Positions 11,766-15,329 of a stretch of DNA of 25,869 bases are shown here, one piece after another. The notes beneath the pieces were generated by a model. That model saw only the letters and a program-made list of their open reading frames with translations, did no database searches and was not told where the DNA came from. Position 1 is the first letter of the stretch. Every line of letters starts with the position of its first letter. A program made the translations under genes and the position numbers. The DNA comes from Candidatus Methylomirabilota bacterium (lineage in GTDB: Bacteria; Methylomirabilota; Methylomirabilia; Rokubacteriales; CSP1-6), in NCBI GenBank assembly GCA_036276335.1, contig DASUPA010000342.1, forward strand, positions 1 through 25,869, in the 5' to 3' direction.

Positions 11766-12755
11766 CTACCGACGGGACAGGCGGCGATACCGCGCGACCG
11801 CGCGGTTGTGCTCGTCGATGCTCATCGAGAAGTGGTGGCGCTTGTCGTCCTGGGCCACGAAGAAGAGGTACTTCACCGGAGCGGGGTCCAGTGCCGCCTC
11901 GATGGCGCCGAGGCCCGGGCTCGCGATGGGGCCGGGCGGGAGCCCGGTCCGCACGTACGTGTTGTACGGATGGTCGGTGAGCAGGTCCGCCCGGCTCAGC
12001 GTCCGGCGCTCCTTGGCGACGGCGTACTGCACGGTCGGATCGGCCTGCAGCGGCATGCCGATGCGCAGGCGGTTCCAGAACACCGCAGAGATCAGGCGCT
12101 GCTCGTCCTTGATGACCGCCTCGCGCTCGATGATCGAGGCCAGGGTGAGCAGCTGGTGGACCGACAGCCCGCGGGCGCGCGCCCGATCGGCGAGCGCGGG
12201 ACCGAGCTTGCTCCGCATGCGCTGGACCATCCGCCCGAGCATCTCCTCCGCGGTCATCCCGCGGACGAAGTAGTACGTGTCGGGAAAGACGTAGCCCTCC
12301 GCGCTGGCGGCCTCGATGCCGTGGGCGGCGAGGAACGTCGTGTCGGCGGCGACGCGCGCCACCTCCTCGGCGGTGGTGAGCTGCTCGGCCTCGAAGGCAC
12401 GCCCGAGCTCGGCGATGGACGCCCCCTCGGGGTGCAGGACCGCCCGGCGCCGGACCTGCCCGCTCTCCAGCAGCGTGACGACGTCCCACGTCGTGGCGTC
12501 CCTGGGCACCTCGTACTCGCCCGCCTTGAGGCTGCGCGGAACGCCGCGCGCGACGGCGGTGGCCACGAACGCCACGCGGCTGCGCACGACGTCGGCCTCC
12601 TTCACGCGGCTGGCGATGCCCAGGATGCTCTCGTGCGGCGGAATGAAGACGGTGAGGGGCCCCTCGCGGAGCGCGGGCGGCGGCGTGACCGCCATCCAGA
12701 CGACGGCCCCGAGCCCGGCGGCCAGCGTGAGGAGGGCGACCCGGCGCAGCGTCAT
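11766..12755 (-). CDS. mltG: Endolytic transglycosylase MltG (YceG family)
   Basis: N-terminal TM anchor, LKAGEYE, EGYVFPDTY, catalytic Glu in LASIIERE, PLQADPTVQY and YNTY...GLPPGPIASPG. Start taken at ATG 12755 (MTLRRVALL). Confidence 0.93.
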   Translation of the reverse strand: MTLRRVALLTLAAGLGAVVWMAVTPPPALREGPLTVFIPPHESILGIASRVKEADVVRSRVAFVATAVARGVPRSLKAGEYEVPRDATTWDVVTLLESGQVRRRAVLHPEGASIAELGRAFEAEQLTTAEEVARVAADTTFLAAHGIEAASAEGYVFPDTYYFVRGMTAEEMLGRMVQRMRSKLGPALADRARARGLSVHQLLTLASIIEREAVIKDEQRLISAVFWNRLRIGMPLQADPTVQYAVAKERRTLSRADLLTDHPYNTYVRTGLPPGPIASPGLGAIEAALDPAPVKYLFFVAQDDKRHHFSMSIDEHNRAVARYRRLSRR

Positions 12756-12873
12756 GATGTCGAGTGTACCCTGCGGCTCGCCGGAGCCGGAAAACCCGCG
12801 CCCGGGGCGCCCGGCGTCCGGCCCCGGGCGCCGCGGGCCGCCCGGGGCCCGCATGGGACGCGACCGCCGTCTT

Positions 12874-12882
12874 TGGTATACT
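12874..12882 (+). promoter_or_regulatory. Putative extended -10 promoter for rpoA
   Basis: TG-g-TATACT, about 46 nt upstream of ATG 12929. SD GGAGG at 12919-12923. Confidence 0.6.
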
Positions 12883-12928
12883 GACGGGCCTTGGGGTATC
12901 GCCCCCTTACTCTGCCACGGAGGTCCGC

Positions 12929-13942
12929 ATGCAGGAGCTGCAGCTCCCCACTCGCCACGACTGGAACGCCACGGAAAAGGTGTACGGCAAGATCGTCATC
13001 GAGCCGTTCGAGCCCGGCTTCGCGCTGACGGTCGGCATCGCCTACCGCCGCGTGCTCCTGTCGGCCATCCACGGCGCCGCGCCGACCTGGGTGAAGATCG
13101 AGAACGTCCTCCACGAGTTCTCGCACCTGCCCGGGGTCCAGGAAGACACGCTCGACATCATGATGAACCTCCGGAAGGTGACGTTCGCGCTGCACGTCAA
13201 CCGCCCGAAGATCCTTCGCCTCAAGGCGCAGGGCACGCGCGCGGTCAAGGCCGGCGACTTCGAGCCGGATTCGGACGTGGACGTCCTCACGCCCGACGTG
13301 ACGCTGGCCACGCTCGACAAGGACGGGATGCTCGAGATGGAGGTGTGCATCGAGCGCGGCCGCGGCTACCAGCCGGCCGAGAAGCGCGAGCCCGAGGCGC
13401 TTCCGATCAACGCCATCCTCCTCGACGCCGACTTCTCGCCGGTCAAGCGCGTGAACTTCCACGTCGAGCCGGTCCACACCGGCAAGAGCGACGGTCCCGG
13501 CCCCGAGCGGCTCGTGCTCGAGGTCTGGACGGACGGCAGCGTGACGCCGCAGGCGGCCGTCGGCGAGGCCTCGCGCATCCTGCAGGACCACTTCACGCTC
13601 CTCACGAACTTCCCCGAACTCGTCCTGCAGGAGGAGGAGGACGCCGAGCGGGGCGAGCCGCGGCCCGGCGCGGAGCTCAACGACAACCTCTTCCGCAACG
13701 TCGACGAGCTGGAGCTCTCCGTGCGCGCCTCGAACTGCCTGAAGACGGCGAACATCCGCACCATCGCCGACCTCGTCCAGAAGAGCGAGGCCGAGCTCCT
13801 CAAGACGAAGAACTTCGGCAAGAAGTCGCTGAACGAGATCAAGACCATCCTCGGCGAGATGGGCCTCTCGCTCGGCATGCGCCTCGACCCCGAAGAAGTC
13901 GAGCGCCTCCGCTCCCAGTTCGAACGCGCCTACGAAGCCTAG
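12929..13942 (+). CDS. rpoA: DNA-directed RNA polymerase subunit alpha, stand-alone and divergent copy (337 aa)
   Basis: RRVLLS, VLHEFS.LPGVQED, GRGY.PAE, DA.FSPV, WTDGSV.P and alpha-[17 protein letters not shown]...[18 protein letters not shown] 5 nt before ATG 12929; the track's start at 12764 is spurious. Confidence 0.95.
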
Positions 13943-13992
13943 GCCGGCGCCGCCAGGCGCGGCGTCCCGGCCGCCAGCGCGGCCCGGCGGGC

Positions 13993-14014
13993 CGGGGCGC
14001 CCCGGGGCGCCCCG
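13993..14014. repeat. 22-bp perfect palindrome / tandem 10-mer between convergent rpoA and dapL; possible bidirectional hairpin
   Basis: CGGGGCGCCCCGGGGCGCCCCG equals its own reverse complement. There is no U-tract on either side. Confidence 0.5.
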
Positions 14015-14093
14015 CCTCTAGCGCTGCACCTCGCGTGCTGGGGAACGTCGGTTCAGCGCCCGCCCCGCCGCACGGCCGGAGTCGCACGCCGGA

Positions 14094-15329
14094 TCAGCGG
14101 TGGAGACGGGACTTGATGCGGTCGACCGCTTCCTGGGTGGCCTCCTTGGCCCCGAACGCCGTGAGCCGGAAGTACCCTTCGCCGCTCGGCCCGAAGCCCG
14201 CGCCCGGCGTGCCGACGACGTGCGCCTCGTTGAGGAGCCTGTCGAAGAAGCCCCAGGAGTCGAGCCCCGGCGGCGTCTTCACCCAGATGTAGGGCGCGTT
14301 GCGCGCGCCGTAGACGCTGAGGCCGGCCGCCTCGAGCCCCTCGCGGATCAGCCGGGCGTTGTCCATGTAGTAGTCGATGGTCGCGCGCACCTGCTTCTGG
14401 CCCTCGGGCGTGTACACGGCCGCCGCGCCCTTCTGGATGACGTAGGGGACGCCGTTGAACTTGGTGGACTGGCGGCGAAGCCAGAGCGCGTTCAGGCTGA
14501 CGCGCTCGCCCGAGACGGCGCGGCCGTGGAGGTCCTTCGGCACCACCGCGAAGGCGCAGCGCGTGCCGGTGAAGCCCGCCGTCTTCGAGAACGAGCGAAA
14601 CTCCACGGCCACCTCCCGGGCGCCCTCGATCTCGTAGATCGAGTGCGGGATGTCGGGGTCCTGGATGTACGCCTCGTACGCGGCATCGAAGAGAAGCACG
14701 GCGCCGGTGCGGCGCGCCCAGTCCACCCAGCCCTTCAGCGCGGCCCGGTCGAGCACGGCCCCCGTCGGGTTGTTCGGGAAGCACAGGTAGACGAGGTCCA
14801 CGGCGCGGTCCGGGAACGGCGGCTGGAAGCGGTTCTCGGCGACGCACGGCAGGTAGACCATGCGCTCGTAGCGGCCCCGCTCGTCGGTCCGCCCGGCGCG
14901 CCCGGCCATCACGTTGCTGTCCAGATAGACGGGATAGACCGGATCGGTCAGCGCGACGACGGCGTCCGCGCTGAAGATCTCCTGGAAGTTGCCGGTGTCG
15001 CTCTTCGCGCCGTCGCTGACGAAGATCTCGTCGACGGCGAGGGTCACGCCGCGCGCGCCGTAGTCGTGCTTGGCGATGAGCTCCGCGAGGAACTCGTAGC
15101 CCGGCTCGGGCCCGTAGCCGCGGAACGTCTCGACGCGCGCCATCTCGTCGACCGCGTCGTGGAGGCCGCGGATCACCGCGGGCGCCAGCGGCCGCGTCAC
15201 GTCGCCGATGCCGAGCCGGATGATCTTCGCGTCGGGGTGTGCCGCCTGGAAGGCCTTCACGCGCGCGGCGATCTCGGTGAACAGGTAGCTGCTCTTCAGC
15301 TGCAGATAGTGGTCGTTGATCCTCGCCAC
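14094..15329 (-). CDS. dapL: LL-diaminopimelate aminotransferase
   Basis: [55 protein letters not shown] lysine in [13 protein letters not shown], and GSGFG-like [17 protein letters not shown] start with SD GAGGAG. Confidence 0.95.

What the first reader, a model, noticed from the sequence alone, without database searches (positions are those of the whole stretch)
12874..13942. Orphan rpoA outside the alpha ribosomal-protein operon
Seen: a full-length rpoA is flanked by divergent mltG and convergent dapL, has its own extended -10 and SD, and has no rpsM/rpsK/rpsD upstream or rplQ downstream. Knowledge: rpoA is almost always single-copy inside that operon; Francisella is the described exception, with two rpoA genes whose products form a heterodimer. 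Inference: this is a second alpha paralogue, implying RNA polymerase with non-identical or exchangeable alpha subunits in this lineage.
Basis: partly seen in the sequence, partly recalled or inferred. Interest (0 to 1): 0.75.

Follow-up and report, generated by a model that had tools for sequence, protein, structure and literature searches.

The report
Second RNA polymerase alpha subunit, Rokubacteria
This soil bacterium's stand-alone rpoA gene is one of two different RNA polymerase alpha subunits kept by nearly its whole order; each copy has lost a different, otherwise near-universal assembly motif, so the enzyme is probably built on a mixed alpha pair, as otherwise shown only in Francisella.

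Summary
Window 12929-13942 (+) encodes a full-length alpha (337 aa, NTD plus CTD). It passes NCBI's rpoA cut-offs. It lies divergent to mltG and convergent to dapL, with a conserved extended -10 and an SD.

The organism is a Candidatus Rokubacteria MAG, 76% complete. It lacks rpsD, rpsK and rplQ, so its own operon copy cannot be seen.

In relatives, 85 of 97 near-complete genomes of the order carry two alphas. One is this "orphan", 64-93% identical. The other is 40-47% identical and sits in rpsM-rpsK-rpsD-rpoA-rplQ. Most genomes of sister orders have one.

Both copies are under purifying selection. rpoB and rpoC are single-copy.

The operon copy has lost the near-universal HEF motif and has a degenerate CTD; one family lacks that CTD entirely. 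The orphan has lost the RVG..TD loop but keeps the ancestral CTD.

Best reading, by inference only: a preferred or obligate, oriented alpha heterodimer.

Metatranscriptomes hold near-identical contigs of the gene.

I found no paper reporting this for Rokubacteria. This scan had already reached the same conclusion on another Rokubacteria genome (e1-5242812).

The parts
12874..12882 (+). Extended -10 promoter element TGgTATACT of the orphan rpoA; there is no recognisable -35.
   Evidence: Read directly. The pattern TGnTAnnnT is present 46-93 nt upstream of the start codon in 67 of 90 distinct orthologous upstream regions. No RNA-library contig covers 12816-12904, and one begins at 12905.
12893..12905 (+). 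Short GC hairpin (GGGG-loop-CCCC) near the predicted 5' end of the transcript.
   Evidence: The GGGG...CCCC stem recurs in 17 aligned relatives, but its pairs are mostly invariant, so support is weak.
12919..12923 (+). Shine-Dalgarno GGAGG, 5 nt before the ATG.
   Evidence: Read directly. GGAGG or GGGGG lies at the same place in the relatives.
12929..13942 (+). Orphan rpoA CDS (337 aa, P0001), the non-operon alpha paralogue of Rokubacteriales.
   Evidence: Orthologues are 64-93% identical across the order and almost always lie next to mltG.
12929..13624 (+). Alpha N-terminal (assembly) domain, residues 1-232. It keeps R41 (E. coli R45) and H62-E63-F64. It carries orphan-specific P29, Y39, R82 and R194 (E. 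coli R33P, L43Y, K86R, K200R).
   Evidence: Residue tables and alignment blocks.
13469..13507 (+). Rewritten loop, residues P181-E193. It replaces the near-universal R191-V-G..T196-D197 motif (E. coli numbering).
   Evidence: The motif residues are kept in at most 5% of 91 orphan sequences. They are kept in 97-100% of operon copies (V192 is Leu there) and in 79-92% of outgroups. Loop length varies among orphans.
13625..13678 (+). Acidic inter-domain linker, residues 233-250.
   Evidence: dN/dS is 0.87, so it is essentially unconstrained.
13679..13939 (+). Canonical alpha C-terminal domain, residues 251-337. The 261 determinant (D259, E260, E262) and the 265 determinant (R266, N269, C270, G297, K299, S300) are intact.
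   Evidence: PF03118 4.4e-26. All determinant residues are conserved in 89-91 of 91 orphans. dN/dS is 0.09. Identity to the single alpha of sister orders is 68%, against 43% for the operon copy.
11766..12854 (-). Divergent neighbour mltG (endolytic transglycosylase). The true start is probably the in-frame ATG at 12755.
   Evidence: TIGR00247 and PF02618. The mltG-rpoA divergent pair is conserved in almost all of about 100 orthologous loci. Relatives align from residue 33-53 onward.
14094..15329 (-). Convergent neighbour dapL (LL-diaminopimelate aminotransferase).
   Evidence: TIGR03542 596 bits. It lies downstream of the orphan rpoA only in the nearer genera.

Best explanation
SHOWN
- The gene is the non-operon member of a pair of RNA polymerase alpha paralogues. 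The pair is older than the order Rokubacteriales (Candidatus Rokubacteria, GTDB phylum Methylomirabilota) and has been kept by essentially all its members.
- The orphan has its own conserved promoter. It keeps the ancestral alpha-CTD almost unchanged. It keeps the HEF motif (E. coli 66-68). It has lost the conserved R191-V-G..T196-D197 loop.
- The partner in rpsM-rpsK-rpsD-rpoA-rplQ shows the opposite pattern. It has lost HEF and kept the loop. Its CTD has lost E261 and C269, and in one family the CTD is gone.
- Both copies keep R45 and are under purifying selection. In five near-complete genomes each carries one complete rpoB and one rpoC.

INFERRED
- The two alphas assemble as a preferred or obligate heterodimer on one beta/beta' pair. 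Duplication was followed by complementary degeneration.
- The orphan is probably the beta-associated alphaI. It would carry the one fully competent CTD, which reads UP elements and touches sigma region 4 and activators.
- The operon copy is probably the beta'-associated alphaII.

The orientation is the weakest step.
For: Two copies across the order
- 40 of 40 relatives hold a match and most hold two.
- 85 of 97 genomes that are at least 90% complete have both copies.
- 40 of 45 genomes of sister orders have one copy, which sits in the operon in the eight sister-order loci examined.
- The second copy lies in infA-rpsM-rpsK-rpsD-rpoA-rplQ.

No demonstrated loss
- Five genomes without the operon copy also lack rpsD.
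- Of five genomes without the orphan, three lack mltG and two have mltG at a contig end.

Reciprocal loss of near-universal motifs
- H66/E67/F68 are conserved at 0.92/0.96/0.84 in 119 outgroup sequences, at 100% in orphans and at 0% in operon copies.
- R191/G193/T196/D197 are conserved at 0.92/0.87/0.79/0.81 in outgroups, at 97-100% in operon copies and at 5% or less in orphans.
- As summarised in PMC3294249, beta protects alpha 30-55 and 65-75, and beta' protects 175-185 and 195-210. The orphan also has K86R and K200R at beta'-binding positions.

CTD asymmetry
- Orphan to sister-order identity is 68%; operon copy to sister-order identity is 43%.
- In the operon CTD, E261 is A or P, C269 is A and L290 is E.
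- In all 14 genomes of family f4 the operon copy matches only residues 1 to about 240. The four read in full are 249 aa with no CTD.

Selection
- dN/dS is 0.24 for the orphan, 0.22 for the operon copy and 0.21 for the truncated copies.

One beta and one beta'
- One complete rpoB and one rpoC in each of five near-complete genomes.

Origin
- The two copies are sister clades with SH-aLRT 96.
- The AU test does not reject their monophyly (p 0.47).
- They share five rare derived NTD states; either copy shares none with sister orders.

Expression
- Near-identical contigs from RNA libraries tile 12905-13930 at higher depth than mltG or dapL.
Against: - No protein-level data exist. Dimer preference, incorporation into RNAP and orientation are all inferred.
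- Both paralogues keep R45, the beta-binding arginine that Francisella alpha2 lost. The clearest Francisella signature of an oriented dimer is therefore absent.
- The footprint data cannot say which protomer uses which motif. I could not compute contacts from a core-enzyme structure.
- Under the site-heterogeneous model the deep branching is an unresolved polytomy. A foreign origin of one copy is not excluded.
- The window's own MAG does not contain the operon region, so the pair is not shown in this strain.
- The RNA evidence comes from assembled contigs of libraries that were found with this gene. DNA carry-over cannot be excluded.
Confidence: 0.6

Rival explanations
1. Two interchangeable homodimeric polymerases. 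Each alpha forms its own homodimer, and the cell has two RNAP populations with different CTDs, used for different promoter sets or conditions.
For: Both copies keep R45 and most dimer-helix residues. The orphan has its own promoter and could be regulated separately. PMC3294249 regards the Chloroflexus duplicates as possibly still equivalent.
Against: Each copy has lost a different near-universal NTD motif, so each homodimer would lack one motif on both protomers. In family f4 an operon-alpha homodimer would give an enzyme with no alpha-CTD at all. No lineage has demonstrably lost either copy, which argues against redundancy.
Confidence: 0.2
2. One copy is a xenologue. The orphan, or the operon copy, was acquired from another phylum rather than arising by duplication within the lineage.
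For: With LG+C20 the orphan, operon and sister-order clades all emerge from an unresolved node on long stems of 0.45 and 0.60. Their best PDB relatives differ: 7ye1 for the orphan and 8i23 for the operon copy.
Against: The larger tree places them as sisters with SH-aLRT 96, next to the sister orders. The AU test does not reject monophyly (delta lnL 0.95, p 0.47). They share five rare derived NTD states (W16, A36, W58, T78, L231), while either copy shares none with sister orders. Both gene trees show the same order of families (f4, then f5, then f1). This rival concerns origin only and is compatible with a heterodimer.
Confidence: 0.1
3. Simple relocation. This is the only rpoA of the organism and has merely moved out of the ribosomal operon.
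For: Only one rpoA is found in the window's own MAG.
Against: The MAG is 76% complete and also lacks the essential rpsD, rpsK and rplQ, so the operon block was simply not binned. Nine of 11 genomes of the same genus have both copies.
Confidence: 0.02
4. The orphan is not a core RNAP subunit. It acts off the enzyme, for example as a free alpha-like regulator or decoy.
For: It lost the R191..D197 loop and changed several conserved assembly residues.
Against: It passes the rpoA equivalog cut-offs. It keeps R45, HEF and the dimer helices, and its NTD is under purifying selection (dN/dS 0.26). In family f4 it is the only source of an alpha-CTD. Its CTD is the ancestral, best-conserved one.
Confidence: 0.05

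Closest known systems
Francisella RNA polymerase alpha1/alpha2 heterodimer (Charity et al. 2007, PMC1891329; Mukhamedyarov et al. 2011, PMC3294249; PDB 6wmp chains A and B)
   Same: There are two rpoA genes per genome, one in the ribosomal-protein operon and one elsewhere. Both are full length in this family. The duplication is specific to the lineage, with faster evolution and complementary changes in assembly determinants. The duplication cannot be told from long-branch effects except by constrained-tree tests.
   Different: The duplication is independent and much older, covering an order rather than a genus. Both copies keep R45, whereas Francisella alpha2 has Gln there. The losses are in other motifs: HEF 66-68 versus the 191-197 loop. 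The non-operon copy keeps the ancestral CTD. The operon copy's CTD degenerates and is deleted in one family. Heterodimerisation is shown biochemically in Francisella and only inferred here.
Chloroflexus spp. and Streptomyces avermitilis rpoA duplicates (listed in PMC3294249)
   Same: There is a second rpoA outside the operon in free-living, non-proteobacterial lineages.
   Different: That paper reports no drastic substitutions in the dimerisation or beta/beta' regions of these duplicates and considers them possibly still equivalent. Here each copy has lost a near-universal motif.
Archaeal Rpo3/Rpo11 and eukaryotic Rpb3/Rpb11 (AC40/AC19) heterodimers
   Same: The assembly platform is made of two non-identical alpha-like subunits. 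One is associated with the beta-like subunit and the other with the beta'-like subunit (discussion of PMC3294249). The CTD-less operon alpha of family f4 parallels the reduced partner.
   Different: Those subunits have no alpha-CTD and need further small subunits for assembly. The resemblance is by analogy, not by descent from this duplication.
Engineered E. coli RNAP with oriented alpha heterodimers or a single alpha-CTD (Ishihama, Ebright, Gourse and Busby laboratories; recalled from memory, not checked here)
   Same: This is an enzyme with one functional alpha-CTD, in which the beta-associated and beta'-associated alphas play different roles at UP elements.
   Different: Those are laboratory constructs. 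Here the asymmetry would be natural and fixed.

Membership tests
Bacterial RNA polymerase alpha subunit (RpoA; TIGR02027 / NF003513) | Whole-protein score above the curated equivalog cut-off | tested here: met
   NF003513 scores 382.9 bits (cut-off 302). TIGR02027 scores 327.5 bits (cut-off 227.8).
Bacterial RNA polymerase alpha subunit (RpoA; TIGR02027 / NF003513) | N-terminal assembly domain (RNA_pol_L with the RNA_pol_A_bac insert) plus the C-terminal domain (RNA_pol_A_CTD) | tested here: met
   PF01193 2.9e-16, PF01000 1.9e-29 and PF03118 4.4e-26.
Bacterial RNA polymerase alpha subunit (RpoA; TIGR02027 / NF003513) | Arg45 (beta binding) and the DNA-binding 265 determinant of the CTD | tested here: met
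   R41 corresponds to E. coli R45. R266, N269, C270, G297, K299 and S300 are present and invariant in 91 orphans.
Bacterial RNA polymerase alpha subunit (RpoA; TIGR02027 / NF003513) | Near-universal R191-V-G..T196-D197 loop of the NTD | tested here: not met
   It is replaced by a loop of variable length (window P181-E193). The motif residues are kept in at most 5% of orphans.
Bacterial RNA polymerase alpha subunit (RpoA; TIGR02027 / NF003513) | Location in rpsM-rpsK-rpsD-rpoA-rplQ | tested here: not met
   The gene is flanked by mltG and dapL. The operon slot is filled by the other paralogue in relatives.
Francisella-type two-alpha RNA polymerase (alpha1/alpha2 heterodimer) | Two non-identical rpoA genes per genome, one in the operon and one outside | tested here: met
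   This is met in relatives: 85 of 97 near-complete genomes of the order and 9 of 11 genomes of the genus. It cannot be tested in the window's own 76%-complete MAG.
Francisella-type two-alpha RNA polymerase (alpha1/alpha2 heterodimer) | Lineage-specific duplication with faster evolution of the paralogues | tested here: inconclusive
   The copies are sister clades with SH-aLRT 96 under LG+G4. They are unresolved under C20. The AU test gives p 0.47, so monophyly is not rejected. They share five rare derived states.
Francisella-type two-alpha RNA polymerase (alpha1/alpha2 heterodimer) | One paralogue has lost Arg45, which orients the dimer | tested here: not met
   R45 is kept in 91 of 91 orphans and 39 of 39 operon copies. 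The asymmetry lies in other motifs.
Francisella-type two-alpha RNA polymerase (alpha1/alpha2 heterodimer) | Both alphas are present in purified RNAP, and the heterodimer forms in preference to homodimers | not testable with these tools
   This needs biochemistry or a multimer structure prediction, and neither was available.

The most novel reading that the evidence does not exclude
Rokubacteriales RNA polymerase is built on an obligate, oriented heterodimer of two alphas. The pair arose by duplication and complementary loss of the beta-side and beta'-side assembly motifs. The enzyme has only one fully competent alpha-CTD, and literally only one in family f4. This would be a natural bacterial counterpart of the Rpb3/Rpb11 arrangement, spread through a whole, abundant soil order.
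Probability: 0.5. Interest if true: 0.8.

Novelty: new member of a known kind. Interest (0 to 1): 0.65.

Why it matters
The alpha homodimer is treated as a constant of bacterial RNA polymerase. Francisella is the single characterised exception.

An entire order of abundant, uncultured soil bacteria with two selected, complementary alphas would show that heterodimeric alpha platforms evolved repeatedly. One family in this order has an alpha without a CTD.

It would also give a natural system for two old questions. What does each of the two alpha positions, and each of the two CTDs, contribute to promoter recognition and activation? How did the asymmetric Rpb3/Rpb11-type platform arise?

There is a likely practical consequence, which I infer and did not check. 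rpoA is, to my recollection, used as a single-copy marker. If so, true paralogy in this order will distort marker-based phylogeny and the contamination estimates of Rokubacteria MAGs.

Tried and rejected
- Own-genome search for a second rpoA found only the window's copy. This is uninformative because rplQ, rpsK and rpsD are also missing.
- The generic sigma-70 and terminator scan found nothing in 12500-14300. The promoter has an extended -10 and no -35.
- The careful site-heterogeneous tree did not resolve the deep nodes. I relied on the larger tree, the AU tests and the rare shared states instead.
- The Francisella-style test for loss of R45 was negative in both copies.
- I tried to obtain residue-level alpha-beta and alpha-beta' contacts. 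The Heyduk 1996 footprinting paper is not held. The alignment supplement of PMC3294249 is illegible. PMC4834550 has no such table. The orientation therefore rests on the footprint summary in PMC3294249.
- A knob-into-hole reading of dimer-interface residues is suggestive only and carries no weight. The residues are operon Y35 and I50 against orphan A46 and A50.
- The first dN/dS script timed out and was redone.
- P0004, an NTD-NTD-CTD alpha, was considered as Rosetta-stone evidence. I rejected it because its two halves are identical, which points to an assembly artefact or a very recent event.
- Literature searches for Rokubacteria with rpoA, and for rpoA duplications, found only the Francisella work.

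Full report
WHAT IS IN THE WINDOW

The ORF at 12929-13942 (+) translates to a 337-aa protein, P0001. It has the three Pfam domains of a bacterial RNA polymerase alpha subunit: RNA_pol_L, RNA_pol_A_bac and RNA_pol_A_CTD. It scores above NCBI's curated rpoA cut-offs, with NF003513 at 382.9 bits against 302 and TIGR02027 at 327.5 bits against 227.8. Its best solved relatives are ordinary alpha subunits: 7ye1 at 6.6e-84 and E. coli at 7e-63.

Upstream and divergent lies mltG (TIGR00247, PF02618). Downstream and convergent lies dapL (TIGR03542, 596 bits).

GGAGG sits at 12919-12923, 5 nt before the ATG. A generic -35/-10 scan finds nothing. However, the extended -10 pattern recurs upstream of the orthologous gene in 67 of 90 distinct relatives' upstream regions, in very GC-rich DNA. 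I read that as a phylogenetic footprint of a real promoter.

WHOSE GENOME, AND IS THERE A SECOND COPY?

Record titles of close relatives name Candidatus Rokubacteria / Rokuibacteriota, which is GTDB Methylomirabilota.

The window's genome is a MAG of 529 contigs, 76% complete. It holds only this rpoA. It also lacks rplQ, rpsK and rpsD. These are essential genes, so the whole rpsM-to-rplQ block was simply not binned. The own genome cannot answer the question, and relatives can.

- Of 40 relatives in the order, all have a match and most have two. One is an orthologue of the window's gene at 64-93% identity. The other is 40-47% identical.
- In the same genus, 9 of 11 genomes have both.
- Of 97 genomes of the order that are at least 90% complete, 85 have both.
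- In a 100%-complete relative (G016) the second copy lies in infA-rpsM-rpsK-rpsD-rpoA-rplQ. The same holds in every other operon locus I fetched.
- The orphan is next to a divergent mltG in nearly all of about 100 loci across the order. dapL follows it only in the nearer genera.

Most genomes of sister orders of the same class have a single alpha. This group includes a closed 2.75-Mb genome. The count is 40 of 45 genomes. That single copy sits in the operon in the eight sister-order loci I examined.

I looked for true losses and found none.

- Five genomes that lack the operon copy also lack rpsD.
- Of five genomes that lack the orphan, three lack mltG as well.
- In the other two, the contig ends within 150-400 nt of the mltG start.

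rpoB and rpoC are single-copy in five near-complete genomes. The extra hits are a contig-edge fragment and two pieces of one gene.

ORIGIN

In a 198-sequence tree (LG+G4) the orphan and operon clades are sisters with SH-aLRT 96. Together they are sister to the sister-order alphas with support 84. The operon stem is long (0.40) and the orphan stem short (0.07).

With a site-heterogeneous model on 79 sequences the deep nodes collapse into a polytomy. Both stems are long there, at 0.45 and 0.60.

AU tests do not reject orphan plus operon as one clade (delta lnL 0.95, p 0.47). They also do not reject adding the sister orders to that clade (p 0.28).

Independently of any tree model, the two paralogues share five rare derived NTD states: W16, A36, W58, T78 and L231 in E. 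coli numbering. Neither shares any such state with the sister orders.

Both gene trees show the same order of families: f4, then f5, then f1.

The best reading is one duplication in the stem of the order, followed by co-divergence. A foreign origin of one copy is not excluded, and I put it at about 0.1.

HOW THE TWO COPIES DIFFER

Both copies are under purifying selection.

| Copy | Whole-gene dN/dS | NTD | CTD |
|---|---|---|---|
| Orphan | 0.24 | 0.26 | 0.09 |
| Operon | 0.22 | 0.22 | 0.19 |

The CTD is strongly asymmetric.

- The orphan CTD is 68% identical to the single alpha of sister orders and 94% identical within the order.
- All residues of its 261 determinant and 265 determinant are intact.
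- The operon CTD is only 43% identical to sister orders.
- The operon CTD has lost E261 (now A or P), C269 (now A) and L290 (now E). It keeps R265, N268, G296, K298 and S299.

In family f4 the operon alpha matches only residues 1 to about 240 in all 14 genomes. The four copies I read in full are 249 aa: an NTD plus a short acidic tail, followed directly by rplQ, with no CTD at all. These truncated genes are still under purifying selection (dN/dS 0.21).

In the NTD the pattern is reciprocal. I screened the 79 columns that are at least 75% conserved in 119 outgroup sequences. These were 110 anonymous cluster representatives, 8 sister-order alphas and E. coli.

| Motif (E. coli numbering) | Outgroup conservation | Operon copy | Orphan |
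|---|---|---|---|
| H66-E67-F68 | 0.92 / 0.96 / 0.84 | kept in 0% | kept in 100% (window H62-E63-F64) |
| R191, G193, T196, D197 | 0.92 / 0.87 / 0.79 / 0.81 | kept in 97-100% | kept in 5% or less |

The operon copy has also lost D77 in most of family f1. In the orphan the 191-197 motif is replaced by a loop of variable length and composition (window P181-E193). In the same loop, V192 (outgroup conservation 0.82) is Leu in all operon copies.

The orphan further carries R33P, L43Y, K86R and K200R. The operon copy carries F35Y, I46T, S50I/V and A112G. Both copies keep R45.

MECHANISM (INFERENCE)

PMC3294249 summarises the E. coli data. Beta protects alpha residues 30-55 and 65-75. Beta' protects 175-185 and 195-210. 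R45 is needed for beta binding. K86, V173 and positions 180 and 200 are needed for beta' binding.

HEF (66-68) lies in the beta-protected segment. The 191-197 loop lies beside and inside the beta'-protected segments. K86 and K200 are beta' determinants.

The simplest model has three parts.

- The copies underwent complementary degeneration after duplication.
- The orphan keeps what the beta-associated alphaI needs, and the operon copy keeps what the beta'-associated alphaII needs.
- Neither homodimer would then present both motifs, so a heterodimer is preferred or obligatory.

This model fits four observations: universal co-retention, one complete rpoB and rpoC per genome, the CTD asymmetry and the CTD-less alpha of f4.

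It also fits what I recall, but did not check here, of work on E. coli UP elements. In that work the beta-associated alpha's CTD takes the promoter-proximal subsite, where the 261 determinant touches sigma region 4. That is exactly the determinant the operon CTD has lost and the orphan has kept.

My probabilities:

- About 0.6 for a preferred or obligate heterodimer.
- About 0.4 for the stated orientation.
- About 0.2 for two homodimeric enzyme populations.

EXPRESSION

Four soil, rhizosphere and sediment metatranscriptome runs hold contigs that tile 12905-13930. In run X15 the pieces that tile 13027-13867 have 0-1 mismatches. Depth is 2-42 over the NTD part, against 0-8 over mltG and dapL. 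No contig covers 12816-12904.

This is consistent with a monocistronic transcript that starts just after the -10. Three cautions apply. These are assembled contigs of libraries that were found with this gene. DNA carry-over cannot be excluded. The CTD part also collects other organisms' sequences.

COMPARISON WITH WHAT IS KNOWN

The closest known case is Francisella alpha1/alpha2. There the heterodimer was shown biochemically, and the duplication was likewise lineage-specific with accelerated evolution. The same paper lists duplicates in Chloroflexus and S. avermitilis that lack drastic substitutions.

The Rokubacteria case is an independent and far older event. It differs in which motifs were lost: R45 is kept in both copies. 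It also differs in that the non-operon copy carries the ancestral CTD, and in the outright loss of the CTD from the operon copy in one family.

I found no paper that mentions rpoA together with Rokubacteria, and none on other rpoA duplications beyond the Francisella literature.

This scan has met the same gene in several other Rokubacteria genomes. One earlier follow-up (e1-5242812) reached the same conclusion. My motif screen reproduces its claim independently.

VERDICT

The gene is a new, independent instance of the Francisella kind of two-alpha polymerase, with interesting variations. The mechanism is inferred, not shown.

Noticed in passing
L026:5041-5787 (-); also L029, L120 and L122 (family f4 relatives): The alpha gene inside rpsD-rpoA-rplQ of family f4 is only 249 aa: an NTD plus a short acidic tail, with no alpha-CTD. 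All 14 f4 genomes searched match only residues 1 to about 240. dN/dS is 0.21. I know of no free-living bacterium reported with a CTD-less operon alpha.
   Followed up: partly
L113:5094-11133 (genome G130, a sister order): The gene order is rpsM-rpsD-rpoA-rplQ, then about 2 kb, then rpsK followed by a second full-length alpha (351 aa). rpsK is missing from its usual slot. This looks like a partial operon duplication with reciprocal loss. The second alpha branches with representative P0031 at the base of the sister-order clade, so it is a separate event. Four other sister-order genomes (G063, G080, G129, G149) also gave two matches.
   Followed up: partly
L165:4001-5581 (GCA_003864475.1, contig BGZO01000033.1); protein P0011: A single 526-aa gene in infA-rpsM-rpsK-rpsD-[ ]-rplQ encodes two diverged alpha NTDs in tandem, followed by one CTD. 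It is either a natural single-chain alpha dimer with one CTD or two adjacent genes joined by a frame error.
   Followed up: partly
L162:6001-7710; protein P0004: A 569-aa NTD-NTD-CTD alpha whose two NTD halves are identical, found on one contig of one sample. It is probably an assembly artefact or a very recent tandem duplication.
   Followed up: partly
protein P0010: A 1031-aa protein made of 11 tandem alpha-CTD (PF03118) repeats. Its origin and context are unknown.
   Followed up: no
window 12893-12905: A short GGGG-loop-CCCC hairpin lies just downstream of the -10 of the orphan rpoA. It recurs in 17 aligned relatives, but its pairs are mostly invariant. It may be a 5' stabilising or regulatory stem.
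   Followed up: partly
window 12753-12854: The mltG ORF as listed starts at 12854. Its first 33 codons are low-complexity and relatives align only from residue 33-53 onward. The in-frame ATG at 12755 (MTLRRVALL..., a membrane helix) is the likelier start. That would make the mltG-rpoA spacer about 170 nt.
   Followed up: partly
relatives G155:C334 and G168:C96 (L163, L164); G096, G020, G166, G143, G001: Rokubacteria MAGs often lose one alpha through assembly or binning. Some contigs end in the mltG-rpoA spacer. In other MAGs rated 86-100% complete, rpsD is missing along with the operon alpha. Two MAGs rated 91% and 97% complete (G104, G108) show no alpha at all.
   Followed up: partly
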